Program-made: the position numbers and the translations under genes
In this document: positions 19,889 through 64,000 of the stretch, in pieces
How positions within the stretch are numbered: position 1 is the first letter of the stretch
Layout of the letters: each line of letters starts with the position of its first letter
The notes under the pieces: generated by a model
Databases searched by the model: none
What the model was told of the DNA's origin: nothing
The model's input: only the letters and a program-made list of their open reading frames with translations
Assembly (NCBI GenBank): GCA_963663405.2
Contig: CAXXSM010000004.1
Span: 1 to 64,000, forward strand
DNA: 64,000 nucleotides
Direction of reading: 5' to 3'
Source: a bacterium
GTDB taxonomy: Bacteria > Hinthialibacterota > Hinthialibacteria > Hinthialibacterales > Hinthialibacteraceae

Positions 19889-19889
19889 T

Positions 19890-40393: not shown

Positions 40394-40576
40394 TCAAATG
40401 TAAATATTGGGGAGAGGAAAATGATTATCTTCTCCCCATTTCTCTTTCTTTTTTCTTTCCTGGCTTAGTGAGAACTCTATCGTTCGGTCTATTCTGGCTG
40501 ATTTCGTCCTTTATATCGAATAATCCATCTTTACTTTCTCGTCTTGCTTTGGTCCGATTTCATTATAAACCAATAC

Positions 40577-44298: not shown

Positions 44299-44308
44299 GT
44301 TTTAGATC

Positions 44309-49900: not shown

Positions 49901-49977
49901 CCGCGCTGACACCACAAGAGCGAAAGGATCAACGTAGTGGTCAAAAGACCTTGTTCGAAAAAGAGGAGAGCCAATGA
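46937..49977 (+). CDS. DUF1156 adenine DNA methyltransferase; two +1 frameshifts (~47746, ~47848)
   Basis: LHLWWARRPL, DMFAGGGAIPLEA, TDPPYYD; linker PVAYLWTRTVKC.NP.C sits in the intermediate frame. Confidence 0.88.
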
Positions 49978-52877
49978 ATGCAACGATGATTAAGCCGTGG
50001 TTGGAAGTGGTCACTCTTCATCCTGATGTTCTATCGGACGAATTTTCCGAAGACATTTTTGCTCTGGATCTAGGACCATTAGCGGATGGCAATAAAAATG
50101 TGGCTGCAGTCTACCGTGATCCCGAGCATTTTTTCCGGGCATCGTATCTCACTACTGGCCTTAAGTCTCTCCTGAAGGACGTACTTTCACGCCTAAGTGG
50201 TGGCGTAGGCAACCGTGTGCTTAAACTGATTACACCATTCGGCGGCGGTAAATCGCACACGTTGGCGTCGCTCTTTCACGCTTCTAAAAACCGCCAGGCC
50301 CTCGATGTGATCCCAGAGGGCAAAGATCTTCCGAATTCCGGCAAGACAAACATTTGTGTCTTCGATGGCCAGTTTTACGATGCTACCAATGGCAAGAAGA
50401 TGCCTGGAACCGACAAGTACGCACGAACCTTGTGGGGATGGATGGCGTGGTCTCTCGGCGGACTAAAGGGCTACGAAATGTTGTGCAAACAAGACCAAGC
50501 ACGCGTCGCTCCTGGCGGTGATGAGATCCTGGAATTACTTAAGAACGGCCCGAACCTGATTCTTCTCGACGAAGTGCTCAACTATCTTATAAGCGCGGGT
50601 GGTTTGAAAATTGAGCAGACTACGCTCCGAGACGAAACCCTTACTTTCCTACAGCGACTTACCGTGGCTGTTGGCAATACTAATAATACTGCTCTAGTTT
50701 TTTCGCTTCAATCGAGTAAGAGAGAATCCTTAGAATACGTGAATCTTCTCCAAACCGTTGACCACTTAGCCGCTCGCAAAGACCAACGCCGTGAGCCAGT
50801 GGAAGGCAATGAGATCCTATCCGTCATCCAGCGTCGTCTTCTCGGCAAGATTCCCAACGAACCAGACGCTTCTCCCGCTGCGACAGCGTATCAAGAAATT
50901 TTCACACAGATGCGTAGAGCTTATGCTCAAAGCACAGCCGAGGGGAAACAGGCCGAAGAAGAAGGACTGGCTTTGCGGGATCGTGTGCGCGCGTCTTATC
51001 CCTTCCATCCCGCCCTGATTGACGTAATGCGGGAACGCTGGGCCGCGATTCCCGACTTCCAGCGCACACGTGGAGCTTTGCGTTTTCTTGCCGCATGCCT
51101 TCGTACGTCACACCGGGAAGGAAAGAGCAGAACTGTCCTTGGCCCAGGTGATGTGCCAATACATGACGCCGAAGTGCGACTTGCCTTCTTCAAGGAAGTT
51201 GGTCAACAGGCAGACTTCCAAGCGGTTCTGGAACACGATCTTATAGGAGCTAACGCTCGTGCGCGCCGAATTGATGACCGTCGTTCTAGGGAAACACCTT
51301 CAGAAGTGGGCAAACGTCATGCAATGCGGTTGGCCACAGCTATTCTCATGTATTCTTTCGGGGGTCTACGTCGTGAAGGCGCGAATGATATGTTGCCTCC
51401 GGGCATCAGCGAGTCGGAACTTCTCTCTGTCTGCGTTGGCCCTGATTTTGACAGTACAACTGCGCTTGCGTGCCTTAAGGAACTTAAGGAGCAGTGCCTT
51501 TATCTTCACTTCGATGGGGTGCGTTACTGCTTCAAGAAAGATCCTAATGTCACGCTTCTAGTCGAACAAGAAGCAAATTCCGTCGCTCGCAATGAGGATT
51601 ATGTCCGTGCGAAGATAAAGGAAATGTTGGAAGAGCGTCTAGCAGGTCACCATGAGGCTATTGTATGGCCTGTCAAAACGACTGATATTCCGAATGAGGA
51701 TCCAAGATTCTTAATTGCTTATCTACCCATTGAATTTAGTGGGCAACCAAAATCTGTGCAGTTTGAGAAGGCAAAGGAATTCTTTGAAAAGTACGGAGAT
51801 AAGCCGCGCAAACATCGAAACGGACTAGGGCTTGCAGTTCCATCCGATGATCAAATTGAGATACTACGACGATCTGTTCGCTATCTTTTAGCCATCGAAC
51901 AAGTCAAATCAAAGGCCAAGCAGCTTAACCTTACTGACGAGCAAAAGAGTCAATTGCGAGAACGGGAATCCACAGAAAAGGCAATCACAGAATCGGCGTT
52001 TCTTAAGTTATACACAGATGTATGGCTGCCTCGCACGGAATCGGGTGGCATAGACATTGATGCTGTATCGGTGGGTGGTCGTCCTCTTCAGACTACACTT
52101 AACGATAGGAAACAAGCTGCAATCCACGAGCGCGTAATGGAATTGCTTTCGGTCGTCCACAAGCGCCTTTTTGGAAGCCTCGCTCCAACAAAAATTTTGG
52201 AATTGTTCAAATTAGGTGAAGGAGATCAACCTCGTTATGGCATTCGATTATCAGAAGTTGTTGAAGGTTTCTACTCGTTTATCGGGTTTACTCGACTGAC
52301 TTCCCAGGATGTGATCCGTAAATCTGTTGCGCGTGGTGTCAAGGAAGGTATTGTTGGCTACGTATCCGGCATGGTCCCTGAACTTGAGGATAACGGTAAG
52401 TTTAAAATCGCACCGGAACGAATCAGATTTACGGTTAATGTTGCGGATGACGAAATCGATCTGGACACCGGATTCATCATGCTTCCGCATTCTGTACCGT
52501 TACCGAGTCCACAACAAGCCTGCCCGAAATGTGGTAAGTTCCCTTGCGAGTGTGTCGAACCACCAGCAGTCTGTCCCAAATGTGGACATATCCCATGCCA
52601 GTGCCAGAATCCTCAAGTTTGTTCGAATTGTGGCCAGTGGCCTTGCGTGTGTGAAATAATACCTCCCCCCATTCTGGAAACAGAGAAAGTGGTCCAAGTC
52701 TCATTCTCAGCCGATCGAAATGAGCTTTATACGGCCTGGAACGCTGTAGCGAATCTCGCAGATCTTGCTGGCAAGGTTAATATCACGATCCATGCAGAAT
52801 CAGTAGAAGGATTCGATAAGAGTAAACTTCAAAATGGTGTGATGGAGCCTCTTCGGGAGGCGGATTTAATAGAGTGA
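49974..52877 (+). CDS. DUF499 AAA-family ATPase
   Basis: TPFGGGKSH, LILLDE, SYPFHP, FQRTRGALR. Confidence 0.9.
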   Translation: MNATMIKPWLEVVTLHPDVLSDEFSEDIFALDLGPLADGNKNVAAVYRDPEHFFRASYLTTGLKSLLKDVLSRLSGGVGNRVLKLITPFGGGKSHTLASLFHASKNRQALDVIPEGKDLPNSGKTNICVFDGQFYDATNGKKMPGTDKYARTLWGWMAWSLGGLKGYEMLCKQDQARVAPGGDEILELLKNGPNLILLDEVLNYLISAGGLKIEQTTLRDETLTFLQRLTVAVGNTNNTALVFSLQSSKRESLEYVNLLQTVDHLAARKDQRREPVEGNEILSVIQRRLLGKIPNEPDASPAATAYQEIFTQMRRAYAQSTAEGKQAEEEGLALRDRVRASYPFHPALIDVMRERWAAIPDFQRTRGALRFLAACLRTSHREGKSRTVLGPGDVPIHDAEVRLAFFKEVGQQADFQAVLEHDLIGANARARRIDDRRSRETPSEVGKRHAMRLATAILMYSFGGLRREGANDMLPPGISESELLSVCVGPDFDSTTALACLKELKEQCLYLHFDGVRYCFKKDPNVTLLVEQEANSVARNEDYVRAKIKEMLEERLAGHHEAIVWPVKTTDIPNEDPRFLIAYLPIEFSGQPKSVQFEKAKEFFEKYGDKPRKHRNGLGLAVPSDDQIEILRRSVRYLLAIEQVKSKAKQLNLTDEQKSQLRERESTEKAITESAFLKLYTDVWLPRTESGGIDIDAVSVGGRPLQTTLNDRKQAAIHERVMELLSVVHKRLFGSLAPTKILELFKLGEGDQPRYGIRLSEVVEGFYSFIGFTRLTSQDVIRKSVARGVKEGIVGYVSGMVPELEDNGKFKIAPERIRFTVNVADDEIDLDTGFIMLPHSVPLPSPQQACPKCGKFPCECVEPPAVCPKCGHIPCQCQNPQVCSNCGQWPCVCEIIPPPILETEKVVQVSFSADRNELYTAWNAVANLADLAGKVNITIHAESVEGFDKSKLQNGVMEPLREADLIE

Positions 52878-52889: not shown

Positions 52890-53116
52890 GATTCCGGGGA
52901 AAGCAAACAAAAAAAATGGATGCAACTGTAAAATTCTTTGGGAAGAGAAAAGTTCTTCGAGATATTCTTCAATAGCCTGTTAGCGAACAACGCAGGCATC
53001 GCCCACAACACACCGCCTTGCGCCACATCCAATTCCGTCTCGAAACAAGTCGGGGCTTTCTCCAACTGCCCGATTGCCGCGCATACCCGCCCTGCCTTCC
53101 TAGTATTTTTTTGCCC
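52890..53116 (-). pseudogene. Transposase fragment
   Basis: DVAQGGVLWAMPALFANRLL...F.LPK.FY resembles an internal transposase segment (recalled). Confidence 0.5.
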
Positions 53117-54528
53117 CGTAAGGTCAAAAAACTCGAATGACAATCAAGTTCTTGTAGAATGCAGACTTGAGATCGGAATTTTGAATAAATCTTGATCGAG
53201 CGTGATCCAGTCTTGTACAGTTTTGGTATGTTTCGGTCGTGAAAAGTCAACAATAGGCGGTTTGGTGGACAGACTTTCGGAATGGCTTAACTGAAGTAAA
53301 GCGCATTACGCTGCATCGCGGTAATAGTATCGTAACATACCACCGAGACGCTCACGAGATTGTATGTCACCTGAAATTCTCCCGATTTCTTCACCGGGAT
53401 CAATGATATGGTTATTCAGGCCTTGGTGGTTTCTTTCATGATGATAATGAGCAAGGAATTCGCGAACCGCATTACGCAGGGAACGGGCGCCAAAGAAAAT
53501 CATTCGGTTTAAACATTCCTCTTTTAAGGATCTATGATATCTCTCCAAATGGGAATTCAAATTCGGGCTCCGCGGTGGTAAACGGACCGGCTTCACACCG
53601 GCGTCTTTCAACAATTTTCTAAAAGCCGGACAGAATATCCCATCCCGATCCATGAGCACATAACGCATGCCATTGAGAAATCCATCTTCGGCGTCGGTTA
53701 GATTTCGTCCGATTTGCTTCATCCACGCTTCCTCAGGATTGGAGACACAACCAGCGAAATGAACGCGCCTTGTCTTGAGTTCCATCACGAAGAGCAGGTA
53801 GATGGTAATCAACCCGCCTATTGTCCAGATCTCAACCGTCGTAAAATCAATGGCGGCTAAAACGTCCCAATGAGCTTGGATAAATGTGGACCATGTTGTC
53901 TGCTGCTTGCGTGTCGGCGCCGGTTCGATTCCATGTTTCTGGAGAATATTGCCGACACTTTGATCCGAAATGTCATGACCAAGGTTGGCCAGCGCGCCTT
54001 GAATCCGGTCATAGCCCCAGGTGGGATTTTCTTGGGCCATACGGAGAACGAGTTCGATGACCTCTTGTGAGATTGGAGGGCGTCCGATCTTCTGTCGATT
54101 TTCACTATAATTCCATTTCTGAGCCACAAGTTCACGATGCCAGCGAAGAATCGTATCCGGGGTGAAAATTGTCGAGATTTCCTTCAAAATTTTCCGTCCC
54201 AGAGTTTTTCCTTTGACCGCGAGCCGGGCCCGCTGTTTATCGTTGAGTAGAATACGCTTTTTGCCTTGGACTTCGAGGAGTATATCGACCTCTGTCCGCA
54301 GAAACTCGATTACCTGTTGTTGCTCTCGATTTACCCAACCTGCAATGATGAGCAAAAAGAATTGCCATGGCTGTAAAATGAAATTCATCGTATCCCCAGA
54401 TTCAAAGTGGTGTCATAGAATCGGGGTAGGGAAGCGGTATGTCAATGGGCCGAAATCATGGATTTGTAATTTTTCCAAGTCTTTTAATCAAGGGCGGTTA
54501 CAGTTCAGTCGACTTTTTTGACCTTACG
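53117..54528 (-). mobile_element. IS with rve integrase-core transposase and CGTAAGGTCAAAAAA terminal IRs
   Basis: IR at 53117-53140 and 54505-54528, 22 of 24 match. Confidence 0.88.
53306..54388 (-). CDS. Integrase-core (DDE) transposase, IS3/IS481-like
   Basis: ENPTWGYDRIQG, AIDF, MDRD, ERYHRSLKEECL, RLGGMLRYY. Confidence 0.92.
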   Translation of the reverse strand: MNFILQPWQFFLLIIAGWVNREQQQVIEFLRTEVDILLEVQGKKRILLNDKQRARLAVKGKTLGRKILKEISTIFTPDTILRWHRELVAQKWNYSENRQKIGRPPISQEVIELVLRMAQENPTWGYDRIQGALANLGHDISDQSVGNILQKHGIEPAPTRKQQTTWSTFIQAHWDVLAAIDFTTVEIWTIGGLITIYLLFVMELKTRRVHFAGCVSNPEEAWMKQIGRNLTDAEDGFLNGMRYVLMDRDGIFCPAFRKLLKDAGVKPVRLPPRSPNLNSHLERYHRSLKEECLNRMIFFGARSLRNAVREFLAHYHHERNHQGLNNHIIDPGEEIGRISGDIQSRERLGGMLRYYYRDAA

Positions 54529-55454
54529 CCATAGTAGCGGACTTTATGGAAGCCACGGGGGAGCACATGCATCACGAAGCGCCGCAGAAATTCTTCGCCC
54601 CGCATGCGGATAGTTCGCCAATGCTTCTCTTTGAAGGTCTTGTAGCGGAACGTTACGTGGGTATCGTCCATTGCCAGAAGCCGATGGTTGGAGATCGCGA
54701 TGCGATAGACATAGCGCCCCAGGTAATTCAAGATGGCTTTCACACCTTTGCCATACGGTTTGCAGAACGAGTTCCATCCCGTATTCCAGACTTTGGCATC
54801 GATCTCCCGGAAGATATCCGGCTCCGCTTTTTCGAGCCGCTCTTTCAAGCGCCTGCGAACGAGCAAGCTGAGCGTTCCCACATCGAGGAGCCATTTCGGG
54901 TGGCGGAGTTCCATCCAAGAGTGGCCGTCCTCACTCACCCCACCGGCGCTGACTAATAGATGGACATGCGGATGCAAATCCAGATCCCCTCGCCAAGTGT
55001 GCAGCACGGTCAGGATCGCCGGGGTGGCGCCGGCGACCTTTGGATTGCGCATCAGATCCATGACACAGGAAGCCACCGTCGTCATCAGCAACCCATAGAG
55101 AATCTTTTGATGAGCCAAAAAGGCCGCTCGAATGGGCTGGGGAACTGTCACGATCACATGAAAGTAACGGCAGCCAAGCATCTGGTCTTCCCGCTTCTCG
55201 ATCCATTTCCGCATCGCCTGGGAATGACAGGACGGACAGGATCGATTGCCACACCCGTGATACACCCAGAAGTCTTCACCGCAGTCCTGACAGTGATAAC
55301 GATGCCCTCCCAGTTCCGCCGTATGGCAGGCCATGATATCGTGCAGCGCTTTGCGTTGCGACGGCAAGAGACGCTTGCCTTGTTTTTTAATGTAAGCTGG
55401 ACCGAACCGGCGAACCACGTCGCCGAGTTCGAGGTTCGATGAAGTGCAATTCAT
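54529..55454 (-). pseudogene. IS91-like HUH transposase, 3'-truncated by the IS at the RYYG motif
   Basis: CGNRSCPSC zinc finger, LHTW...HPHVH, YLGRY, HVLP.GFHKVRYYG; AGGAGG before ATG 55454. Confidence 0.88.
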
Positions 55455-56315
55455 GATTCCTCCTAACATCAGATCGGCGAACACGGCATTGACACGTTCC
55501 TGCACCTCGTGGCGAAGTGGCTCCGTCAAATGGGTGTAGATTTGGGTGGAACGAAGACTGGAATGACCGAGAAGAATCTGGACGATTCGTATGTTCTCGC
55601 CGCTCTCCAGCAATTTGGTGGCAAAGGAGTGGCGTAGCTGGTGCGGCTTGATGTCGTTTGTCAAACCGATTTCCTCGCAGGCCAAGCGGAACGCTTGACA
55701 GAGTGTCGACGCGGGGATGTGGTTAGAGCCCTTTTGGTTGGGGAACAGCCAAGTGGGATGGTGATGCGTAAACCAGAGTTCTTTCATCGGATCCAGCAAC
55801 GCGGCGGGGAGAGGAACGATTCGCTCTTTGTCATCCTTCCCAATAATACGTAGACACATTTGCTTGGAGTCGATCTTTTTGACCGGAAGCGAGACGGCTT
55901 CACTGGTTCGGAGACCGCATGTGTACATCAAAGCCAGGGCCACCCGATAGGGCGATTTCCTGACGACGGAAAGGAGGGCGCGAACCTGGGAATGGGTTAA
56001 TGGATGTGGCAGACGCTTTTGGCGGGGCTTGCGAATCTTTTTTTTGCAAACAACGGCCACCCCAGATCCAACGTGGTTTGATAGAGAAATTTCAGCGCGC
56101 TGTAGTGAACCTGAAACGTTCCGAGAGCGACTTTCTTCACGTCTCGCAATTTCAGTAAATAAATCCGGACGAGTTCCTCGCTAATGCATTCTGGCGAGCA
56201 ACCAAATTCTTGGGCGAATGAGGCGATGGCTCGGACGTATTCTTTTTGCGTGCCTTCGCTCAATCCTGCTAACGTCATGTCTTCGCGCAACAGTCCTCGG
56301 AATTCTGTTTCACCG
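55455..56315 (-). CDS. Tyrosine recombinase of the IS91-like element, split at an A8 run (56038-56045); 5' end uncertain
   Basis: SAM-like N-domain in 55997..56386; GLRTSE, HQLRHSFAT, LLGH, Y in 54498..56060. Confidence 0.82.
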
Positions 56316-56805
56316 TCGAGTAAAATCCATCGAACAACAACTGCGTGTGAGCGCGGAGGCAAAAATTGAGGAGATTCGCTCCACACGAGAATGGAAAGAA
56401 GCGGCGCTCGCGAAAGTTCTCGGACCTACTTTCATGCATCTAGAGCGAACGGAACGCGCATTTTGTCGCTGGGAGAAGAAGCAACTCTTTCTAGAGATGG
56501 AGGTTATCGGAAAATCCAACCGTTGTGTTCGGGATCTGTTATTGGATAATGCCCATCTAATACCCTTGGATCTACTTGACCATGCATCAGATTTAATACA
56601 CCATTATGACGTGTGGCTGGAGATGTTTCATGAAAAGCGAGAATCAGAAAATCCCGACCTGAACACAAAATTTATCTTTACCGGCCCAGAGGGCTATGGA
56701 TTTCCAGATGCCAGCAAAACAGCGTTCCAAAATAAATTTCACGAGTTTCGTCAGGAACTGTATGGGACAACCCAACAATCGCTTAAACTGGAAGATTCGC
56801 GCTAG
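56316..56805 (+). pseudogene. Hypothetical protein, probably 5'-truncated
   Basis: Protein-like helical ORF whose 5' part overlaps the integrase on the opposite strand. Confidence 0.45.
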
Positions 56806-57002
56806 TAACTAAATACGGTTAAGGATCAGGATACATCAATTTTTGAGCAGAAGTGATATCAATTTGAATATGAAAATAAACTAGCAATTGATTTGATATA
56901 AAAAATCCTCACAAATAATAATGACATAAATTAAACTGGTCACTGAGTTGAAATTATCCAAAGATTTATAAACCATACATTCTTACTTGGTCTAATGATA
57001 AA

Positions 57003-57482
57003 ATGCCCTCAACAAAAGACCATCAACACGCTGCATTCACGCAGAATTTCATCGAGGCGATGAAGAAACAACAATACTCTTTGGTTGGCTGTGAGATCAT
57101 GTACAACCATTACGGGGATCGGGGCGTAATTGATGTTGTACTTCGCAAAGATTATGTGGACCAGAAACGATCGACATGGTTGATCTGTGAAATGAAACCT
57201 CGGCTCTACGATATTGGTGAAACCATCCGGCAAGTTCACCGGGCGGAGGAATATTTCTGTCGCGCGCGGCCGGATATGAAGATGCAAGGTTGGGAGAATG
57301 AATATCGTTTTATCCTGGTTCTAGAAGCGGATAAGCAGAATCTGCATCAAGTCCAATGTCAGCACAGGGATCTCTTTGCTGGGATTGATGTGATGTATCA
57401 CCACAGTGATTCTCATCAGATCGATGCAATTGAACGTATGAGTGAGATCATGAATGCGATTTTGACCGTGCAAAACCACTGA
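57003..57482 (+). CDS. PD-(D/E)XK nuclease-like protein
   Basis: E....YGDRGVIDV...ICEMKP....GETIRQ. Confidence 0.65.
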   Translation: MPSTKDHQHAAFTQNFIEAMKKQQYSLVGCEIMYNHYGDRGVIDVVLRKDYVDQKRSTWLICEMKPRLYDIGETIRQVHRAEEYFCRARPDMKMQGWENEYRFILVLEADKQNLHQVQCQHRDLFAGIDVMYHHSDSHQIDAIERMSEIMNAILTVQNH

Positions 57483-57494
57483 TTTACTAACCCA

Positions 57495-58742
57495 TCAAAT
57501 TTTCGTTTGATCGATATCCAGCAAGCTAATTCTCAAAATTTTCTTCTCCAAATCCTGAATCCGCTGGGCGATCAAATAGCCTTCTTTCTTCCAGACTCTC
57601 GCTATTCGAATTTTCTTGAGCGCTTCCTCTATTCTTCCAGTCAGAAGATTTCTCATGGAATCACGCAACGATTGATTGATCGCGATTTCCCGATTCTCAA
57701 TCCTCGTTTCTAACTCCTCGATTTCCGATTCCAATCCAACCTTTTGTTGTTCATCCAGTATTTCTTTTTTCAATTTTCTTCGTTCTTTAAGACTCATTTT
57801 TTCCATCAATTGGCGCTGTTTTGCAGAAAACAGACTGGAATCCAGAGCCAGGAGACGTTCATTAAGTGTTTTGAGAGAATCCAGTGATTTCTTCAAATAG
57901 CGGTTCGATTGAAACGTCATTTGTATTTTCTGAGCGAGCAAGGATCTTGCCCGGGGATTTGCCCCATAATGTTGAATGGCAGAATCCAGTTCATCAAACG
58001 ATGCCTTTGTCTCTTTCATATTGGACAGCATTTTTTTGATTCCTGGAATACCGAGTTTCTTCAAAGAGTTCGCTTCAGTAGCTAATTCTTCATTTGGGAT
58101 TCGATTGAAATGATTTTGGGAGAGTTTGCGTAATTTGACCTTCAGAGTTTTATCCGGATTCCTTACACTCATCTTTGCAAGCGCTTTCAGCAGAAAAACA
58201 AGAAATACGATTACAAGAAAAGGATATAGAAAGGGATTGATTGTACTTGATAAGTCATACAAGTTAGGATCGATGGTTGTGACCACCAACATCGTCACAA
58301 TCAATGTCAAAAGAAAAGAGAGAATCGGATTCATTTTCAAATACAAAAAACTGTGATAGACCATAATCCCAAACAGAAACGTTAAAAGGACGATCGCCAC
58401 CGTTCCGAATGAAGAAAGAGTAAAGTGATATTTCTTTTCCACAGAGATCATGGAAAAAGCCAATGCCAATCCAATCCCCAAACTGACCGCCCTGCCCGCT
58501 CTACCCGGAAATTTCTTTCGGAGACTGAAATGAGCGATTCCAATAAAGACAAGAGCAAAGACGAAAAAATCGATGACAGTGGAATAACGAAGATAAACAT
58601 GGGTTGGATCAAAGATGGTTTCCCATGGAGTCAAAGCAGAAAATCCATTGGGAATCGACGATCTTGTGATTACCCACGCGTGATGATCTATCCCATTTGC
58701 GATTCGATTTCCAATCATGGATTCATATTTGTTCCTACTCAA
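57495..58742 (-). CDS. Membrane protein (~5 TM) with C-terminal coiled coil; start uncertain
   Basis: Hydrophobic helices in the N-half and a charged helical C-half; divergent from cdc6. Confidence 0.75.
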   Translation of the reverse strand: MSRNKYESMIGNRIANGIDHHAWVITRSSIPNGFSALTPWETIFDPTHVYLRYSTVIDFFVFALVFIGIAHFSLRKKFPGRAGRAVSLGIGLALAFSMISVEKKYHFTLSSFGTVAIVLLTFLFGIMVYHSFLYLKMNPILSFLLTLIVTMLVVTTIDPNLYDLSSTINPFLYPFLVIVFLVFLLKALAKMSVRNPDKTLKVKLRKLSQNHFNRIPNEELATEANSLKKLGIPGIKKMLSNMKETKASFDELDSAIQHYGANPRARSLLAQKIQMTFQSNRYLKKSLDSLKTLNERLLALDSSLFSAKQRQLMEKMSLKERRKLKKEILDEQQKVGLESEIEELETRIENREIAINQSLRDSMRNLLTGRIEEALKKIRIARVWKKEGYLIAQRIQDLEKKILRISLLDIDQTKI

Positions 58743-58782
58743 ATATAAATTTTACGATTGGAAATCCGTACAAAATTCGATT

Positions 58783-59038
58783 GAACTGTGAGAAGATTTC
58801 TCATGGAAACTTATTTTCGGTTGTGATATGTATGAAAAAAAATTGGATTATTGAATGTATGTTTTTGTTTTCTATATAGTAAGTAATAAAAGAAGTAACA
58901 ATTAACTTATTTTATAATTACGTTCCACAGGAAATCTTCCCTTACAGTTCTCTGTTTTCACTCTTTCAGGACAAAAGAAGATTTAAATAGTAAAAGGCTC
59001 CTTCCTATGCAGCATGAGTCAGAAGATTTCCTATGGAA
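58783..59038. promoter_or_regulatory. Candidate Orc1/Cdc6-type replication origin: inverted ORB-like boxes around an AT-rich spacer
   Basis: AGAAGATTTCTCATGGAA 58791-58808; inverted TTCCACAGGAAATCTTCC 58923-58940; AGAAGATTTCCTATGGAA 59021-59038; spacer about 20% GC by hand count. Confidence 0.65.
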
Positions 59039-60285
59039 CCGGTACATCTACCTCGACAGCGAGCACAGAATCCCTGATACAAGAAGCGTTTCTCCATATC
59101 GAAGACAAGAAAATCACGCTGAATCCTTCCTATCTCGATGACGAAAAACTGACGGAATCCGAACGGGTGACGGTTCTGCAGGAGATCTTTCAGCGCAATA
59201 TCCGCCAGCAACAACTGCATCGATTGGCCAAATACTTGTCCCCGGTGCTCGCCGGTGATTCGCCGGCCAATCTCCTGATCTACGGCCCTTCCGGGGCGGG
59301 CAAATCGGTCACCTGCCTACATTTTCTCAACGCTTTGGCTTCCATGTGCGGCGTCAAACAGATCCAGTTTCAGTATTATTATGTGGATCTCACCACTCCG
59401 AAAACTTGTTTTGGCGCCTTGAACGAGCTGGCCTTATCCCTAGATGGGACTACCAAACGGTACCGTAAGGGCATCGCGCTGGACCAGATGCAGGAGACTG
59501 TCATCCGGGCGCTGACGGCCCGCCATGATCTGGTCTGCATTGTGGTGGACGAGGTCGACAATATCACCTCCAACAGCGATCTCTTTTACACATTTTTAGC
59601 CAAAACCTTGCCCAAACGGATTCCAGTCCGCCTGTTTTACCTCTTGTTGACCAACCGGATCGAATGGGATAAAACCCTTGATCCCCGAATTCTCTCCGTG
59701 CTCAAAAAGACGGATATCATTTTTGAGCCCTACGACGCTATGGATCTAATTGAAATCTTAAATCTCCGAGTGGAGAAAGCCCTCGACACCCGGAAAGTCG
59801 ATCCCGCGGCGATCCGGAAAATCGCCGCGTACGCGTCACGGGAGAATGGCGACGCGCGCAAAGCCATCGAGTTGCTGGTCAAAGGAGTCAAAATCGCCGA
59901 AGATTCGACCGGTTATTTAGGCGTCCGTGAAGTGGACGAAGCGGATTCCTTGCTGGAGATCGACAAAACCGAACAGTTAATCCACGCTCTCGCGCCTCAG
60001 CAGAAATGCGCTCTCTTAGCCTGCTATACAGGGTTGCAAAACTCACGAGAAAAACTCTGGACCGGGCCCGCCTATGATATTTATCGATCCATTTGTGACC
60101 GGCGGAATGTGCGAACACTCACGCAGCGGCGGTTCTCCGATATCGTCAGTTTTTTGGATATCTACGGTTTGATCAACGCCCGGGTGATCTCAAAGGGGCG
60201 CTACGGAAAAACCCGGGAGCTGTCTTCCTCTCTCCCAGAAAAAGTCGTTCAGAAGGTCTTCAAGACCTGCGAACAGAATCTTTAA
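59014..60285 (+). CDS. cdc6: Orc1/Cdc6-family AAA+ replication initiator
   Basis: NLLIYGPSGAGKS, VVDEVD, LDPRI.S, FEPYDA.DL.EIL..R, GDARKAIELL, and wHTH TQRRFSD....L...GLINARV.SKGRYGKTR. Confidence 0.9.
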   Translation: MSQKISYGTGTSTSTASTESLIQEAFLHIEDKKITLNPSYLDDEKLTESERVTVLQEIFQRNIRQQQLHRLAKYLSPVLAGDSPANLLIYGPSGAGKSVTCLHFLNALASMCGVKQIQFQYYYVDLTTPKTCFGALNELALSLDGTTKRYRKGIALDQMQETVIRALTARHDLVCIVVDEVDNITSNSDLFYTFLAKTLPKRIPVRLFYLLLTNRIEWDKTLDPRILSVLKKTDIIFEPYDAMDLIEILNLRVEKALDTRKVDPAAIRKIAAYASRENGDARKAIELLVKGVKIAEDSTGYLGVREVDEADSLLEIDKTEQLIHALAPQQKCALLACYTGLQNSREKLWTGPAYDIYRSICDRRNVRTLTQRRFSDIVSFLDIYGLINARVISKGRYGKTRELSSSLPEKVVQKVFKTCEQNL

Positions 60286-60521
60286 TCGTTCATTACCGGA
60301 AACAATGAATGTTCCATTTTCTCAATGGTTCGTAAGGTGGACCGAAGAGTGGTTTCTTCGAACCGGATCTCTGATGAATTCTTTTGAGGATTTCGGTGTA
60401 ATTTATTTAAGCGATTGCGACTCGCATCAACCATATTGCGCAGATCTCTGATTCTCTGAATAGTAATCCAATCCAGTGGTTCACTCACTAAAAAAGTCCG
60501 GTCTTCAAAGCAGGGATTCAT
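60282..60521 (-). CDS. Hypothetical protein
   Basis: ATGA-coupled to 60518..60826. Confidence 0.55.
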   Translation of the reverse strand: MNPCFEDRTFLVSEPLDWITIQRIRDLRNMVDASRNRLNKLHRNPQKNSSEIRFEETTLRSTLRTIEKMEHSLFPVMND

Positions 60522-60826
60522 GGTAGACGGTTAGGGATCGATGGATGGGGAGGAGACTGTGTCGGCTGATATCCTGACTCTGGTTTCTTGAGTATGAGCA
60601 CCTCATAAGACTTTTTAAGAACCAGGATCGCCTTGGGGATATCATTGATATCAAGCCGGTGTGTGCTTTTAAAATGACCGCTTTCATCCTTGTAGATCCG
60701 TTCCACCGCGACTTTCGCGCTGGTAAACGATTTACCATCGGTGGATTGATGTGGATTCATCCAGATAGCGGCGCGAACCGCCCCGGCTTTAAATTCCATC
60801 TCCGGTTTAGCGGCTATTCCATTCAT
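60518..60826 (-). CDS. Small putative ssDNA-binding (PC4/whirly-like) protein
   Basis: P...FKAGAVRAAIW.N...V.VERIYKD..G.FKST..L..NDIPKA.LVL.K.YE; function inferred. Confidence 0.6.
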   Translation of the reverse strand: MNGIAAKPEMEFKAGAVRAAIWMNPHQSTDGKSFTSAKVAVERIYKDESGHFKSTHRLDINDIPKAILVLKKSYEVLILKKPESGYQPTQSPPHPSIPNRLP

Positions 60827-60981
60827 GGTTCATCACCGTATTCCGGTTGTCTTTTGGGCGTGAATCGCCGTTTACAGGATTTGCATTGGCGAATTCGAAC
60901 GCTTCCTTCTTTCAATTTACGATAGCCCCGCCAAATAGTGTTTGACGATGAACAATAAGGACATTCAAATAGTTCTTCCAT
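60823..60981 (-). CDS. 52-aa zinc-ribbon protein (InsA-N-like), absent from the ORF track
   Basis: MEELFECPYCSSSNTIWRGYRKLKEGSVRIRQCKSCKRRFTP; GGTGAT upstream; ATGA overlap with next gene. Confidence 0.7.
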   Translation of the reverse strand: MEELFECPYCSSSNTIWRGYRKLKEGSVRIRQCKSCKRRFTPKRQPEYGDEP

Positions 60982-61078
60982 ACTTGATCACCTGTAAAAC
61001 AATAGGTCTCGACATCTATATAAACCTTTCGTTTTTCCAACCGAAACATCTATATGCTTTGCGCATATCCTCAATAAC

Positions 61079-61852
61079 ATGATCATTACACGAAGGAATC
61101 CAAATCCTCTGATTGCGGCGATCGATCGTGTTCACGATCGAGTGACAACAATCCAGACCATTGCGCGGAATTTTTACTTGGCAGTGCTGCGGATGCGCTA
61201 CCGGTGCCCCCACTGCGGCCAAAAAATGAAGGTTCACTCTCCTACGACATGGCGATGTTCCTGTGGCGTTCAACTCGATCCGACAATCGAGTTTCAACCA
61301 AGCCCCTGTTGCAAAGCCAGGTTAACGAAGAAAGTGTATCATTACGTCTGTACGCAATGCGGCGCTGCGGTTCCGTCCAAATTTCTCTTCGATGAAAGGC
61401 TGTTCGACGCGGACTATTTCAGAGAGCGGATGAAAGAATCACGGGAACGGAAACAACAACTCCGGGAGAGGCTGAGAAAACAACTTGCTGATTCCCGCTC
61501 GAAAGAACTGGAATTGGAGGATTATCCCCAATTGGACACCATCCCAGGATTGGAACAAGATTTAAACCGGTTGATTGGAACCGAATCGGGGAATGATGTG
61601 TTTGCGTTTAATCGTTCGGAGACGTTCTGCATGACCGATTATCACCGAGCCATTTCCACTCTTGTCAACCAGCGCGGTGTGCTCTTTTCACAAATCCCCG
61701 CGTTGCATCCTTCCACACCGAAGGATCGAATCTGGCGGTTTATCACCTTGATTTTCATGGAACATGACCGGGAAGTCCATTTGCGGCAAGAGGGGGATGA
61801 TATCTGGGTGTTCAAACGGGATTGCGATGAAGAGATCGAAAACCTTAAATAG
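61079..61852 (+). CDS. Multi-zinc-ribbon protein with ScpA/kleisin-like C-terminal winged helix
   Basis: CPHC, CSC, PCC, CTQC; C-terminal RIWRFITLIFMEH..EV.L.Q...DIWV. Confidence 0.65.
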   Translation: MIITRRNPNPLIAAIDRVHDRVTTIQTIARNFYLAVLRMRYRCPHCGQKMKVHSPTTWRCSCGVQLDPTIEFQPSPCCKARLTKKVYHYVCTQCGAAVPSKFLFDERLFDADYFRERMKESRERKQQLRERLRKQLADSRSKELELEDYPQLDTIPGLEQDLNRLIGTESGNDVFAFNRSETFCMTDYHRAISTLVNQRGVLFSQIPALHPSTPKDRIWRFITLIFMEHDREVHLRQEGDDIWVFKRDCDEEIENLK

Positions 61853-62219
61853 AACATCTATCCAAGAGATAAATGTGAAACTAACACAAAAGGATTTGGA
61901 GTTTATTCAACGGTTGAAAGGTCTGTTTGAGGAGAACGATCTGTCGATCGAGCTGAAGCAGACCGATCCGAAGACGTTGGTGTTGCGAAAAAATTACGGG
62001 ACGAAAATAGAGCGCGCGTTTGGCATGACGCGCCAGGGAATCCGATGGAGGTTCCAACGGTTATTCAATGATATTTACGTGAACGCGTATACAACGATCT
62101 ATTGGTTAGAATCCAATTTTGGCTCATACCTACGATCTCAGGCGCTTGAAATCGCGAAAGAACGAGTGACATTACGCAAACGAGTCAATCATGCCAATCA
62201 ATCCTACCGCCCCAAATAA
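61827..62219 (+). CDS. Hypothetical HTH-containing protein (alternative GTG start 61875)
   Basis: IERAFGMTRQGIRWRF. Confidence 0.6.
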   Translation: MKRSKTLNRTSIQEINVKLTQKDLEFIQRLKGLFEENDLSIELKQTDPKTLVLRKNYGTKIERAFGMTRQGIRWRFQRLFNDIYVNAYTTIYWLESNFGSYLRSQALEIAKERVTLRKRVNHANQSYRPK

Positions 62220-62220
62220 A

Positions 62221-62634
62221 ATGGCTTCGACAAAAATCGAGATCAATCACAACACGATAGCCCGGTTAGAATCCGCGGATGAGTTGGCGAGAATTCTCTT
62301 TCCAGATAACTCTAATCATCAAAAGATTTTTCTATCGATCTTTGTGGAACTGAAATGGGCCAAGGATCAGTTCTTGCCGGTCCTGGATCCCATCGTGGAT
62401 CAACTGGGACTGAGCCGCCGGAGTTTGGAAACGGTTCGCGCCAAAATGCGGCGAATGGGGCTGATCGATCATGTCTCCCGGTTCAACAAAACCTACGGCT
62501 ATCGGGAAGGCTGGGTGTTTTCAAACAAATTTCCCCGGGCCTTAGTGAAAGTGGCCAATTTAGTTCTAAAATTCCGTGAGAAGAAGGATTCCGTCCAGGA
62601 ACAGAAAGAAAGGGATCTGATATTTTACCTTTGA
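62221..62634 (+). CDS. Winged-HTH protein
   Basis: IVDQLGLSRRSLETVRAKMRRMGLID. Confidence 0.65.
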   Translation: MASTKIEINHNTIARLESADELARILFPDNSNHQKIFLSIFVELKWAKDQFLPVLDPIVDQLGLSRRSLETVRAKMRRMGLIDHVSRFNKTYGYREGWVFSNKFPRALVKVANLVLKFREKKDSVQEQKERDLIFYL

Positions 62635-63688
62635 GAATTCTCTTTTGATTGCTGTAAAATACTCAAAAAATGAGTTCAATTTATGTTTCTCGTCGATAAA
62701 GTCATATGCATAAGTTCAATGGACAGCCTACACGATAGTAAAGGTATATACCCTCCTAAAATTTCATCCCATTCCGCAAGAAAACTGCATATTTTTCAAT
62801 CTTTTAGTTGGAGTTCGCTTGTCCCCCCACCCCCTTGCGCTCAAATCACACGCTTTCGCACGGTTTTCAGTAGGAGATCATTTTTGGAAGATCTCCAAAA
62901 GATGAGTCACGAAATTTTAACAAGGAAGAAAAAATGAATTCGTTCAGAAACCGTCTATTTTGATCGAAAAGGCAGGGGTAAAAAATAACAATTCAAACCA
63001 AGACAACTATTTTGACTAATATTTCTTGACTCTCTTGTCTTTCCACTCGTTCTCAGCCAACCAAATGCGCGGATCTTCATATCGCAGCCGGTAAATAATG
63101 TGTTCGACTTTTAGGTTGACTTCTTTGAGCTGTTCTTCAATCCAATCGGCGATTTCATTCTCGGGTGTGTGGGGTGTGATTCGTTTCATGGGACAAGGAG
63201 AATTGTCACTACTATTTAAAGGTTACGGTTCGCAGTCACTCAAGAGATACAACAATCCTCTCAAAATGAAGTTGTCCAAACGCTAAAAACCGGAAGATTT
63301 ATAAATCGGAGAGAATTCACTTCTGCGCAAGAACAACAAAACACCATCCGAAAGTAGCATCTTTTCCACCAGGAAAATGAGATGACTTTCGGGTTGGAAA
63401 ATAAAAAAAAGACCACATGAAACCATTGTCCGTATCCGGTTTTGTCCCAACAAACCGTTGAACAGCGAATGAATGGTCTGTGGTCAAGACATGAAATCCA
63501 TACGGGACATTCCCGTCGATAAACGTAAAATGGCGAGATTCGCCTAGTGAATACTCTCTGCCTCTCTTCTCGATCGATCCGATCGCATTTTCTATTCAAA
63601 ACCGCATCCAAATAGCAAAACAACCTGGCAGGGCAGATACTGGCCTGCCAGGCCGTTTTGCCTCAACCATAACAATGGAGGTTCCAAA

Positions 63689-63952
63689 ATGAAAGAAACC
63701 AATCGAACAAGCAGTACCGTAGAAAGCCAGCCCCAGATCGTTGTGTCACGAGCCGTATACGAAACATTGACACCGGAGGAAATCCATCACGCGTTCACGA
63801 TTCTCTTTGAGAAGATGAAGGTTCCCGATCCAGCCAATCCCAACCTATGGACCGTCCAGATCAATGGAAGCCGGTTGTGGGGCATCCTGGATGAAGGAGC
63901 CGGAACCGATGGACAGAATCTCGTGTCGTTGATTTTTCCAGAGGATTACTAA
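63689..63952 (+). CDS. Hypothetical protein, paralog of 35256..35522
   Basis: GGAGG RBS; ETLTPE.IH.AFTILFEKMKVPDP.NPNLWTV shared with the first copy. Confidence 0.8.
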   Translation: MKETNRTSSTVESQPQIVVSRAVYETLTPEEIHHAFTILFEKMKVPDPANPNLWTVQINGSRLWGILDEGAGTDGQNLVSLIFPEDY

Positions 63953-64000
63953 TTCAATAAAAAAAATGAGGAGGTATCAAAACAATGAAAAACACCAAAA

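What the first reader, a model, noticed from the sequence alone, without database searches (positions are those of the whole stretch)
57643..60285. Archaeal-style Cdc6 plus ORB/DUE origin on a bacterial mobile element
Seen: a full-length Orc1/Cdc6 protein (AAA+ and C-terminal wHTH) and four copies of an 18-bp box, consensus TTCCAYRRGAAATCTTCY. Copies are at 57643-57660 and 58791-58808 (identical), 58923-58940 (inverted) and 59021-59038 (inside the cdc6 5' end). The inverted pair is extended by GAACTGT/ACAGTTC and brackets a 114-bp spacer of about 20% GC. Known: archaeal oriC lies next to cdc6 and has inverted ORBs (core TTCCAGTGGAAA) flanking an AT-rich DUE; bacteria use DnaA. The context is bacterial (peptidoglycan M15 endolysin, lipobox protein, IS3). 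Inference: an integrated element replicating or autoregulating through a Cdc6/ORB module. No MCM helicase is in the window, so the loaded helicase is unknown. The G-string of canonical ORBs is absent.
Basis: partly seen in the sequence, partly recalled or inferred. Interest (0 to 1): 0.9.

Follow-up and report, generated by a model that had tools for sequence, protein, structure and literature searches.

The report
Archaeal-type Cdc6 origin module in bacteria
A bacterial mobile element carries a full archaeal-style Orc1/Cdc6 replication initiator next to its own recognition boxes and an AT-rich stretch, and the same layout recurs in distant bacteria that have no archaeal MCM helicase.

Summary
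All four 18-bp boxes are at the stated coordinates (0 of 100 shuffles give 4). The ORF at 59014-60285 is a full Orc1/Cdc6: it passes TIGR02928 (246 vs 181 bits) and matches Sulfolobus Orc1-1 at 1.7e-45.

The contig is not chimeric. The genome has a true DnaA and four cdc6 copies. They sit in an integrated element about 23-36 kb long, whose copies are 88-91% identical. The intact copy on contig C110 has a tyrosine integrase, Replic_Relax, a HerA/TraG-like ATPase and ArdC.

Across 31 loci from at least two phyla, including cultured Desulfosarcina variabilis and Desulfocarbo indianensis, 20 show one layout:
- box A(-), an AT-rich spacer (median 128 bp, GC 0.27) and box B(+);
- box C(-) on the start codon.

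Three unknown DNA-binding-type genes follow cdc6. No MCM was found. No bacterial plasmid or phage record carries the clade, and seven literature searches found no description.

Best reading (0.5): the origin and initiator of an integrative element, autoregulated through box C, with the loaded helicase unknown. Main rival (0.3): a regulator only. DNA binding and origin firing are untested.

The parts
56956..64000 (.). Left part of a multicopy integrated element. It continues to C4:83531, beyond the window.
   Evidence: blastn gives 88-91% identity to C141, C110, C86, C47 and C38, starting at 56956. This C4 copy is degraded. It has no integrase (an IS91-like element lies at the left edge), CobT is split, and Replic_Relax is truncated.
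57003..57482 (+). 159-aa ORF of unknown function at the element edge
   Evidence: Conserved in all copies. No match in Pfam, NCBIfam, PADLOC or PHROGs.
57495..58742 (-). 415-aa protein: hydrophobic N-terminal half, charged coiled-coil-like C-terminal half. Transcribed divergently from cdc6.
   Evidence: Translation; the membrane and coiled-coil reading is by eye. Weak homologs (22-28% identity) lie beside cdc6 in L026, L030, L031, L033 and L039 and in G038. No family match.
57643..57660 (-). Box 1, a distal copy inside the 415-aa coding region
   Evidence: Exact match, identical to box A of this copy. PWM score 16.0 against 26-31 for boxes A-C. Present in the other G000 copies. Not seen at this position in other loci.
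58791..58808 (-). Box A, the ORB-like site whose core abuts the AT-rich spacer
   Evidence: A counterpart lies at -188 to -337 on the minus strand in 24 of 31 loci. Its centre varies among the G000 copies, with 5 of 18 columns variable.
58809..58922 (.). AT-rich spacer, the candidate DNA-unwinding element
   Evidence: 114 bp at GC 0.20. In the 22 loci with both A and B the spacer is 88-229 bp (median 128) at GC 0.14-0.44 (median 0.265), against a median locus GC of 0.475. The C110 copy has a 501-bp repeat inserted here.
58923..58950 (+). Box B, the ORB-like site inverted relative to box A, with the ACAGTTC extension
   Evidence: 0 of 18 columns vary among 4 genome copies, against 18 of 73 in the adjacent B-C gap. 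A counterpart lies at -74 to -112 on the plus strand in 26 of 31 loci.
59021..59038 (-). Box C, overlapping codons 3-8 of cdc6; the candidate autoregulatory operator
   Evidence: A counterpart lies between -20 and +30 of the estimated start (the window used; observed -14 to +27) on the minus strand in 28 of 31 loci. The protein N-terminus itself is not conserved (consensus).
59014..60285 (+). Orc1/Cdc6 homolog, 423 aa (AAA+, lid, C-terminal winged helix)
   Evidence: Pfam. TIGR02928 at 246 bits against a cutoff of 181. PDB matches: 2qby_A at 1.7e-45 and 2v1u_A at 2.8e-45 over residues 64-413. Walker A, Walker B and GDAR are invariant in 16 clade members.
61079..61852 (+). Conserved partner 1 (257 aa): four-Cys-pair zinc-ribbon region, coiled coil, C-terminal winged-helix-like domain
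   Evidence: 37-42% identity in 6 other loci, with the Cys residues invariant. Synteny. The model is weak (pLDDT 68, pTM 0.31); the best fold hit is the ScpA C-terminal winged helix at E 8e-3. No family match.
61764..62219 (+). Conserved partner 2. The conserved core is about 105-115 aa, so the true start is probably downstream of 61764. Possible helix-turn-helix.
   Evidence: 52-62% identity across loci. Translation. No family match. The HTH reading is by eye only.
62191..62634 (+). Conserved partner 3 (about 137 aa): winged helix-turn-helix plus a long C-terminal helix
   Evidence: 56-64% identity across phyla. The model (pLDDT 71, pTM 0.61) shows H-H-H-strand-strand; the best fold hits are MarR, TFE and ST1889 winged helices at E about 4e-3.

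Best explanation
What it is. The locus is the replication and maintenance control module of an integrative mobile element. Where the element is intact it carries a tyrosine integrase, Replic_Relax, a HerA/TraG-like ATPase and ArdC.

Proposed mechanism:
1. A bacterial-clade Orc1/Cdc6 ATPase binds its own ORB-like boxes through its C-terminal winged helix and the AAA+ initiator-specific motif.
2. Boxes A and B are inverted, with their cores facing a spacer of about 90-230 bp. Bound Cdc6 distorts and opens this AT-rich DNA, and a replicative helicase is recruited there.
3. Box C lies across the cdc6 start codon, so the same protein shuts off its own synthesis.
4. The genome has no MCM. The helicase would therefore be a host bacterial one (DnaB-type), possibly bridged by the three conserved downstream proteins (zinc-ribbon, HTH, winged HTH).

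Shown: the homology; intact ATPase and winged-helix motifs; the boxes; their conserved order, strand and spacing across phyla; the mobile-element context.

Inferred: DNA binding, unwinding, origin firing, autoregulation, and the identity of the helicase.
For: The protein
- Pfam Cdc6_C plus lid plus AAA.
- TIGR02928 above its curated cutoff.
- The best solved relatives are the initiator-type Orc1-1 and ORC1 proteins crystallised on ORB DNA (2qby_A, 2v1u_A, about 1e-45). Orc1-3 scores 4.6e-25 and 1fnn 9e-9.
- In the recognition-helix and wing segment, 19 of 33 residues are identical to Sso Orc1-1, including TQRR and GRYGKT (counted by eye on the alignment).
- Walker A, Walker B and GDAR are invariant in 16 members.

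The boxes
- The core TTCCAYMGGAMAT carries the 'TTCC' and 'GAA' that PMC1904270 (passages read) reports as perfectly conserved in Pyrococcus ORB and mini-ORB. That paper quotes TTCCAGTGGAACT.
- 85 PWM sites lie in 12.6 kb around the gene starts, against 8 in 191.8 kb elsewhere in the same loci.

The layout
- The A(-)/AT-rich/B(+)/C(-) layout is complete in 20 of 31 loci and partial in 10.
- It persists although the upstream gene differs between loci.
- It meets the operational criteria used to call orc-adjacent origins in haloarchaea: an intergenic region next to orc/cdc6, with inverted ORBs flanking an AT-rich element (PMC3528665, passages read).

Mobile context
- Four or more copies in this genome.
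- Two copies each in Desulfocarbo and in G039.
- Patchy distribution: 5 of 35 genomes of the phylum, and 4 of 201 in the order of Desulfosarcina.
- Integrase and transfer-type genes in the intact copy.
- Replic_Relax and/or the HerA/TraG-like ATPase within 20 kb in 4 of 6 Desulfobacterota chromosomal loci.
Against: - No MCM or other archaeal replisome part was found, so there is no precedent for what this initiator would load.
- The clade was found on no PLSDB plasmid. There were 421 hits, all under 60% identity; the best listed is 31.7%, and all 40 listed rows are archaeal.
- It was found on no phage record (3 hits, all haloarchaeal viruses).
- All 7 matches in the five named genomes searched are chromosomal or on large scaffolds.
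- The genes stay intact in degraded copies. The C4 copy lacks the integrase. The C110 copy has a 501-bp repeat inside the spacer and an altered C-terminal tail. This fits a role that does not need an intact origin.
- The conserved neighbours look like DNA-binding regulators, not replisome parts.
- Box C on the start codon needs only a repressor function.
- No excised circle or copy-number peak could be tested. Only low-depth contigs were available.
Confidence: 0.5

Rival explanations
1. Regulator only. The Cdc6 homolog is a sequence-specific, ATP-dependent transcription factor, comparable to the non-initiator archaeal Orc1-2. It represses itself through boxes B and C and controls the divergent gene through box A. 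It sets the on/off state of the element and fires no origin.
For: - Box C sits on the start codon in 28 of 31 loci.
- No MCM.
- The clade is never on plasmid or phage records.
- The genes are kept in degraded copies, and in a copy whose spacer is split by a 501-bp insertion.
- The downstream partners are winged-helix or HTH-type.
- Non-initiator Orc1/Cdc6 regulators exist in archaea (abstract of PMC9738581 as listed; passage of PMC11791011).
Against: - The inverted A/B pair with an AT-rich spacer of constrained length and composition is kept even where no divergent gene sits upstream.
- The closest solved relatives are the initiator type (Orc1-1), not Orc1-3 or the 1fnn type.
- Integrative elements with FtsK/HerA-type transfer genes commonly carry their own replication gene (recalled: actinomycete ICEs). 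No other Rep candidate was seen in the element apart from Replic_Relax.
Confidence: 0.3
2. Another DNA transaction. The Cdc6-box complex serves partition, a centromere-like function, silencing, entry exclusion or anti-phage sensing for the element, rather than initiation or simple repression.
For: - The three conserved DNA-binding-type partners have unknown roles.
- The C-terminal domain of partner 1 weakly resembles the ScpA winged helix (E 8e-3).
- ORC/Cdc6-clade ATPases gave rise to nucleic-acid-sensing STAND proteins (PMC8195603, passage).
- The window is rich in defence-type genes.
Against: - There is no PADLOC match beyond a weak mad8 hit (E 3.9e-4).
- No effector domain sits in the conserved set.
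- A ParA-type gene was seen in only 1 of 70 neighbouring ORFs.
- The site layout copies an origin, not a repeat array.
Confidence: 0.12
3. Transposition ATPase. The protein is a TniB/TnsC/IstB-like target-selection ATPase, and the boxes are transposon end repeats.
For: Weak sub-threshold Pfam TniB (16.8 bits against a cutoff of 22.4) and a PHROG 'DNA transposition protein' hit. IS elements are next door.
Against: - All boxes lie within about 350 bp upstream of the gene, not at the element ends.
- No transposase is conserved beside the gene across loci.
- The full-length match to Orc1, including Cdc6_C, is far stronger than the transposition hits.
Confidence: 0.02
4. Artefact. The module is archaeal DNA mis-binned or mis-joined into a bacterial contig.
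For: The genome is a fragmented assembly: 170 contigs, 82% complete, 2.4% contamination.
Against: - There are four copies on contigs up to 189 kb long, with bacterial genes on both sides.
- An independent contig of run X1 with 0 differences bridges 56172-57111, although this run may be the source sample.
- Homologs at 55-59% identity lie in complete chromosomes of cultured and uncultured Desulfobacterota.
- The bacterial sequences are monophyletic.
Confidence: 0.01

Closest known systems
Archaeal orc1/cdc6-adjacent replication origins (for example Sulfolobus oriC1/Orc1-1, Aeropyrum ORC1-ORB, Pyrococcus oriC, haloarchaeal oriC-cdc6 pairs)
   Same: - The initiator has the same three domains and matches Orc1-1 and ORC1 at about 1e-45.
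- The origin-like region lies directly upstream of the gene.
- Inverted repeats with a TTCC...GGAA dyad core flank an AT-rich stretch (PMC1904270 and PMC3528665, passages read).
   Different: - The host is a bacterium with DnaA and without MCM.
- The box extension after the core is T/C-rich (ATYTWCYC), not a G-string.
- A third box always sits on the start codon.
- Three bacterial-only partner genes follow.
- The protein falls below NCBI's ORC1 equivalog cutoffs (238 against 501 bits).
- It belongs to a separate clade.
Haloarchaeal and Methanosarcina plasmids and archaeal proviruses that use Orc1/Cdc6 as their replication protein
   Same: A mobile element carries its own Orc1/Cdc6. All 40 listed PLSDB rows and all 3 phage rows are of this kind. 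See also bioRxiv 10.64898/2026.10.06.756670 (passages read).
   Different: Identity is only 24-32%. Those hosts supply MCM. That preprint treats the orc replication protein as archaeal (454 of 564 plasmids of cultivated archaea) and, in the passages read, reports no bacterial lineage.
Iteron plasmids with winged-helix Rep proteins (RepA, RepE, pi) and actinomycete integrative conjugative elements (recalled)
   Same: - A winged-helix initiator binds repeats beside an AT-rich region and represses its own gene.
- The WH1 domain of such Rep proteins has been proposed to be related to the Orc1/Cdc6 winged helix (bioRxiv 10.1101/2024.09.03.610885, passage).
- Actinomycete ICEs combine an integrase, a Rep gene and an FtsK-like transfer ATPase (recalled, not from a call).
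   Different: - Those Rep proteins lack the AAA+ module.
- Their repeats are direct iterons.
- They rely on DnaA boxes, which are not enriched here. The rate is 0.64 per kb inside against 0.32 per kb outside, and most inside hits overlap the boxes themselves.
Sulfolobus Orc1-2, a non-initiator Orc1 paralog acting as a DNA-damage regulator
   Same: The same domain set used for transcription control. This is the model for the main rival reading (PMC9738581, abstract seen in the listing).
   Different: The window protein is closer to Orc1-1 than to other solved paralogs. Its sites are arranged like an origin.

Membership tests
Orc1/Cdc6 initiator protein family | AAA+ module with Walker A, Walker B and sensor-2 (GDAR) motifs | tested here: met
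   GPSGAGKS, DEVD and GDARKA are present (translation). G94, G96, K97, D179, E180, G279, D280, A281 and R282 are invariant in 16 clade members.
Orc1/Cdc6 initiator protein family | C-terminal winged-helix DNA-binding domain (Cdc6_C) | tested here: met
   PF09079 at 7.3e-21, 74 bits against a cutoff of 25.1, residues 322-414. TQRR and GRYGKT are shared with 2qby_A.
Orc1/Cdc6 initiator protein family | Initiator-specific helical insert (ISM) between Walker A and Walker B | tested here: inconclusive
   Residues of about 120-145 align without gaps to Orc1-1 and ORC1, and T127, P129, F133, N137 and E138 are invariant in the clade. The position of the ISM is recalled, and no structure of this protein was modelled.
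Orc1/Cdc6 initiator protein family | Curated family threshold | tested here: met
   TIGR02928 (subfamily) at 246.1 bits against 181.3.
Archaeal ORC1-type replication protein (NCBIfam equivalogs NF001625, NF001623, NF001626) | Score above the equivalog cutoff | tested here: not met
   238 against 501, 94 against 311 and 79 against 417 bits. The protein is a separate lineage, as the tree also shows.
orc/cdc6-adjacent replication origin (criteria of PMC3528665) | Intergenic region directly adjacent to the orc/cdc6 gene | tested here: met
   Boxes A and B lie 91-218 bp upstream of the start codon.
orc/cdc6-adjacent replication origin (criteria of PMC3528665) | [quoted passage not shown] | tested here: met
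   A(-) and B(+) flank a 114-bp spacer at GC 0.20. 22 of 31 loci have both A and B.
orc/cdc6-adjacent replication origin (criteria of PMC3528665) | ORB core motif (TTCC ... GAA dyad) | tested here: met
   In the consensus of 84 sites, T2, A5 and G9 are invariant and C4, G8, A10 and A12 are present in at least 77 of 84. The comparison with archaeal ORBs rests on text passages of PMC1904270. Figures and supplements with the actual ORB alignments were not visible.
orc/cdc6-adjacent replication origin (criteria of PMC3528665) | G-string at the end of the ORB | tested here: not met
   The extension is ATYTWCYCAC. PMC3528665 calls the G-string halophile-specific, so it is not a general requirement.
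orc/cdc6-adjacent replication origin (criteria of PMC3528665) | An MCM helicase available to be loaded | tested here: not met
   PF00493 gave only hits of 30.5 bits or less, of the kind that all 10 bacterial control genomes also give. The genome is 82% complete.
orc/cdc6-adjacent replication origin (criteria of PMC3528665) | Initiator binding and autonomous replication activity | not testable with these tools
   This needs EMSA or footprinting and an ARS-type assay.
Integrative conjugative or mobilizable element | Site-specific recombinase at one end | tested here: met
   Phage_integrase at 5.3e-32, at C110:47305-48411. Host-type genes (amine oxidases, GT2) lie beyond it. It is absent from the window's own copy.
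Integrative conjugative or mobilizable element | Relaxase or transfer ATPase | tested here: inconclusive
   Replic_Relax at 9.1e-20. The 660-aa ATPase has DUF87/HerA at 2.5e-11, but P-loop_TraG scores 22.9 bits, below its cutoff of 25.8. No type IV secretion genes were looked for, and att sites were not defined. No tRNA was found in the eight loci scanned (parts of C4, C110, C141 and C86).

The most novel reading that the evidence does not exclude
A widespread bacterial lineage of Orc1/Cdc6 initiators fires ORB-type origins without MCM. On this reading, an archaeal or eukaryotic-type origin recognition protein opens DNA and hands it to a bacterial DnaB-type helicase. The hand-over would go through the three conserved, bacterial-only partners (zinc-ribbon, HTH, winged HTH). 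This would be a natural hybrid of the two supposedly non-interchangeable initiation systems, carried on integrative elements of Desulfobacterota, of the window's own phylum (its nearest named cdc6 relatives are labelled Hydrogenedentota) and probably of Planctomycetota.
Probability: 0.3. Interest if true: 0.92.

Novelty: new variant of a known kind. Interest (0 to 1): 0.8.

Why it matters
Bacterial (DnaA/DnaB) and archaeal-eukaryotic (ORC/Cdc6/MCM) initiation are textbook examples of non-homologous machineries. Orc1/Cdc6 is treated as an archaeal marker; a 2026 plasmid survey uses it that way.

This finding shows a conserved bacterial clade (55-70% identity across phyla, intact ATPase and winged helix) that keeps an archaeal-style origin layout in genomes without MCM.

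If the module fires, it shows which parts of the ORC-type mechanism do not depend on the helicase, and it identifies a new replicon type for hard-to-engineer anaerobes. If it does not fire, it is a bacterial case of an Orc1 protein recruited as a regulator.

Either way the question can be tested directly, because cultured carriers exist: Desulfosarcina variabilis Montpellier, Desulfocarbo indianensis SCBM and strain NaphS2.

Tried and rejected
- Sequencing runs. Only Logan contigs were served and no RNA holder was listed. Depth for this organism is about 2-3x and no piece spans the whole stretch, so excision, circular forms and copy number could not be judged. A 128-bp skip (58765 to 58894) in one contig each of X1 and X3, and a loose end at 58941, most likely come from other copies or from another organism's module. 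They were not pursued.
- Complex prediction on partner 1 + partner 3 + Cdc6: no verdict (score 0.00). It is not evidence either way.
- Fold searches of partners 1 and 3: nothing at E <= 0.001, only generic winged-helix hits.
- The ESM Atlas returned only unnamed bacterial clusters.
- The exact window core was first sought in 7 homolog loci with a strict pattern and not found upstream. A mismatch-tolerant scan then found it.
- DnaA boxes (a recalled 9-mer, up to 1 mismatch) are not meaningfully enriched.
- Promoter-like sites in the spacer are at chance level: 2 found against 1.8 expected.
- Rfam gave no match in 56500-63000.
- No tRNA was found in the eight loci scanned, which cover parts of C4, C110, C141 and C86.
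- Scanning seven distant Orc1/Cdc6-like loci (L048-L050, L082, L084, L086, L087; three carry archaeal names, the rest are unnamed metagenome contigs) for the bacterial or a recalled archaeal core gave 3 scattered hits and nothing informative.
- Host phylum. The nearest named DnaA (62% identity) is labelled Omnitrophota, whereas the nearest Cdc6 relatives are labelled Hydrogenedentota. The phylum is left open. It has only 35 species genomes in the held set.
- The tree is unrooted and most archaeal-side rows are unnamed. It does not show a donor or a direction of transfer. Representatives outside 370-470 aa were dropped before the tree was built.
- PWM caveats. The matrix was trained on the same upstream windows that it then scored, so only the outside count and the positions and strands are independent. 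L025, L037 and L044 (duplicates), L038, L046, L047, L079 and L080 (too little upstream sequence), L021, L022, L028-L031 and L033 (not entered in the scan), and the other G000 copies were left out of the 31. L065 has only 229 nt upstream. The metagenome loci were not dereplicated against the genome loci.
- Literature. Searches found no paper describing a bacterial Orc1/Cdc6 with ORB-like sites. The library lacks most subscription journals. I recall, without a call, that AAA+ classification papers mention sporadic bacterial ORC/Cdc6-like ATPases. Supplements were not opened; the ORB alignments of PMC3528665 and the figures of PMC1904270 could refine the motif comparison.

Full report
**1. Observation**

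They match TTCCAYRRGAAATCTTCY with no mismatch, against a chance expectation of 0.08, and 0 of 100 shuffles reach 4. Boxes 1 and 2 are identical 18-mers. Box B is inverted relative to box A. The 114-bp spacer between them has GC 0.20.

The ORF at 59014-60285 encodes 423 aa with AAA+, Cdc6 lid and Cdc6_C domains. It passes NCBI's orc1/cdc6 model TIGR02928 at 246 bits against a cutoff of 181. It aligns over residues 64-413 to Sulfolobus Orc1-1 (2qby_A, 1.7e-45) and Aeropyrum ORC1 (2v1u_A, 2.8e-45). These scores are much better than for Orc1-3 (4.6e-25) or 1fnn (9e-9). In the recognition-helix and wing segment, 19 of 33 residues are identical to Orc1-1, including TQRR and GRYGKT (my count on the alignment).

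**2. Not an artefact**

The window is contig C4 of an 8.44-Mb, 170-contig genome (82% complete). The genome has a typical DnaA (227 bits) and four Cdc6_C genes. In the whole genome the degenerate box occurs 14 times, only at copies of this module.

blastn shows that cdc6 lies near one end of a multicopy element. In C4 it runs from 56956 to 83531, with two insertions. Copies at 88-91% identity lie on C141, C110 and C86, with fragments at the ends of contigs C47 and C38.

The C110 copy is the most complete:
- a tyrosine integrase (C110:47305-48411), with ordinary host genes beyond it;
- the 415-aa gene, then cdc6;
- a MoxR/CobS-like ATPase, CobT-vWA and ArdC-M78;
- a 660-aa HerA/TraG-like ATPase and Replic_Relax.

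The window's own copy is degraded. An IS91-like element stands where the integrase should be, CobT is split, and Replic_Relax is cut to 136 aa. The rest of the window is bacterial: phage tail genes, an M15 peptidase, a subtilase, IS elements, and a helicase/DUF1156/DUF499 cluster.

**3. Relatives**

- The protein search gave 432 hits with E <= 1e-3 among 8000 scored candidates. The best outside this genome is 70% identical. The few named ones are Hydrogenedentes or Thermodesulfobacteriota 'Cdc6' or 'AAA ATPase'.
- Named genome loci include Desulfosarcina variabilis Montpellier (complete chromosome), Desulfocarbo indianensis (two copies), strain NaphS2, and Desulfarculia, Desulfatiglandales and Hydrogenedentota MAGs.
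- Distribution is patchy: 5 of 35 genomes of the window's phylum and 4 of 201 in the order of D. variabilis.
- A quick ML tree of 125 rows puts the 12 named bacterial sequences in one clade (SH-aLRT 96). It splits into a Hydrogenedentota-type group (97) and a Desulfobacterota group (99).
- The sister group (support 100) is a second clade, about 43% identical to the window protein, from genomes of the window's own phylum. The two clades together have support 98.
- These clades, with six unnamed representatives, are separated from 103 archaeal-side rows, among them Micrarchaeota and Halosimplex. The tree is unrooted and shows no donor.
- PLSDB holds 421 matching records, all under 60% identity. 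The 40 listed are all archaeal. The phage collection holds 3, all haloarchaeal viruses.

**4. The cis layout is conserved**

Relaxed scans first showed the same arrangement in L018, L020, L024/L025 and L026. A position matrix built from the upstream windows was then run over 31 loci. It gives 85 sites in the 12.6 kb from -350 to +45, against 8 in the other 191.8 kb. The matrix was trained on those same windows, so the independent evidence is the outside count together with the positions and strands of the sites.

| Site | Strand | Position relative to the start | Loci with it (of 31) |
|---|---|---|---|
| Box A | - | -188 to -337 | 24 |
| Box B | + | -74 to -112 | 26 |
| Box C | - | -20 to +30 (window used; observed -14 to +27) | 28 |

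All three boxes are present in 20 loci, two of them in 8, only box C in 2, and none in 1.

The A-B spacer is 88-229 bp (median 128) at GC 0.14-0.44 (median 0.265). The median locus GC is 0.475.

The consensus is TTCCAYMGGAMATYTWCYC. T2, A5 and G9 are invariant in 84 sites. The cores of A and B both abut the spacer, and their extensions point away from it. Box C points back toward box B.

Among this genome's paralogous copies, box B varies at 0 of 18 columns (4 copies). Box C varies at 0 of 18 in 3 copies and at 1 of 18 in 4. The gap between B and C varies at 16-18 of 73, and the spacer at 25 of 114.

The protein N-terminus that overlaps box C is not conserved. The constraint there is therefore on the DNA.

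**5. Comparison with archaeal origins**

PMC1904270 (passages read) states that Pyrococcus ORB and mini-ORB share perfectly conserved 'TTCC' and 'GAA', and quotes TTCCAGTGGAACT. PMC3528665 (passages read) defines orc-adjacent origins as intergenic regions next to orc/cdc6 with inverted ORBs around an AT-rich element, and calls the G-string halophile-specific.

By these criteria the locus qualifies. It differs in the following ways:
- its host is a bacterium;
- there is no MCM, only generic AAA+ hits of 30 bits or less, as in all bacterial controls;
- the box extension is T/C-rich;
- a box always sits on the start codon;
- three partner genes follow.

**6. Conserved neighbours**

cdc6 is followed by three genes:
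- a 257-aa zinc-ribbon/coiled-coil protein;
- a protein of about 115 aa, possibly HTH;
- a winged-HTH protein of about 137 aa.

This trio is present in L019, L024, L025, L026, L039 and L041, partly in L018 and L028, and in G035, G038 and both G039 loci. None has a Pfam, NCBIfam, PADLOC or PHROG family. The Atlas places two of them in unnamed bacterial clusters. The models support a winged helix for the third protein and, weakly, for the C-terminus of the first.

Replic_Relax and/or the HerA/TraG-like ATPase lie within 20 kb of the module in 4 of 6 Desulfobacterota chromosomal loci. In G113 and G079 only cdc6 was found with these queries, plus a distant integrase in G113. Other neighbouring genes are variable and typical of genomic islands: integrases, IS21, IS66 and Mu-type elements, one ParA and DruA.

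**7. Interpretation**

The protein almost certainly binds the boxes: its DNA-reading elements are conserved, and sites and gene co-vary in position across phyla.

Whether the site fires as an origin is open. In favour:
- the layout is an origin layout and persists whatever gene lies upstream;
- the protein is of the initiator type;
- the element family otherwise lacks an obvious Rep gene.

Against:
- no cognate helicase is present;
- the clade is never seen on a free replicon;
- the genes survive in decayed copies, and in one copy whose spacer is split by a 501-bp repeat;
- the partner genes look like regulators.

I give 0.5 to origin plus autoregulation, 0.3 to regulator only, 0.12 to another DNA transaction, and the remainder to the transposition or artefact readings or to something unforeseen.

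**8. Novelty**

Seven literature searches and passages from five papers found no description of a bacterial Orc1/Cdc6 with ORB-like sites. A 2026 plasmid survey treats orc as archaeal. A plasmid-initiator phylogeny mentions Orc1/Cdc6 only as a distant relative of Rep winged-helix domains.

Databases already name some of these genes 'Cdc6', so the gene's existence is not new. What appears new is the conserved module, its mobile-element setting and the missing helicase.

Supplements were not opened.

Noticed in passing
window 54498-56060 (-), unit about 54529-56285: The transposase has an N-terminal tyrosine-recombinase domain (Phage_integrase, 1e-37) fused to Zn_Tnp_IS91 and Y2_Tnp. Fifteen other copies at about 88-90% identity are spread over the genome. 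Two of them lie next to the left end of Cdc6-element copies, on C4 and C38.
   Followed up: partly
G000:C110:44409-44909 (outside the window; equivalent to the spacer 58809-58922): A 501-bp repeat with at least 8 further copies at 98.7-100% identity on other contigs. It is inserted exactly in the AT-rich spacer of the C110 module. Its sequence contains a perfect match to the recalled DnaA-box 9-mer, seen by eye in the alignment. It may be a MITE-like element with a taste for AT-rich origin-like DNA.
   Followed up: partly
window 35304-40394: A diverged (77-83%) partial second copy of the element's MoxR/CobS-CobT segment (ORFs 36461-37378 and 37631-38794). It is a relic of another insertion in the same contig.
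   Followed up: partly
window 1-19900: A phage or GTA-like tail block: PhageMin_Tail at 6814-9129, Phage-tail_3/Rcc01698_C at 10645-14469, Peptidase_M15_3 at 19421-19888. It has higher GC (0.49-0.53) and a strong positive GC skew. It is probably a prophage remnant unrelated to the Cdc6 element.
   Followed up: partly
window 40783-52877: A cluster that looks like a defence island: an SNF2/NOV_C helicase, a DEAD/Helicase_C_2 helicase, DUF1156, a 717-aa protein with no family, and DUF499. The 717-aa member is unexplained.
   Followed up: no
window 52899-53090: A 196-bp repeat present on 12 other contigs at about 86-87% identity. Its nature is unknown.
   Followed up: no
window 32752-34870: A 2119-bp stretch 100% identical to C141:19467-21585, where it interrupts the C141 element copy. 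It is a recently active mobile unit; the ORF at 33047-34789 has no Pfam match.
   Followed up: no
G000:C110:43006-44325: The C110 cdc6 copy matches the window protein only over residues 1-400, and its open frame is longer (439-440 aa), so its C-terminal tail differs just after the wing. Together with the spacer insertion, this copy may be decaying.
   Followed up: no
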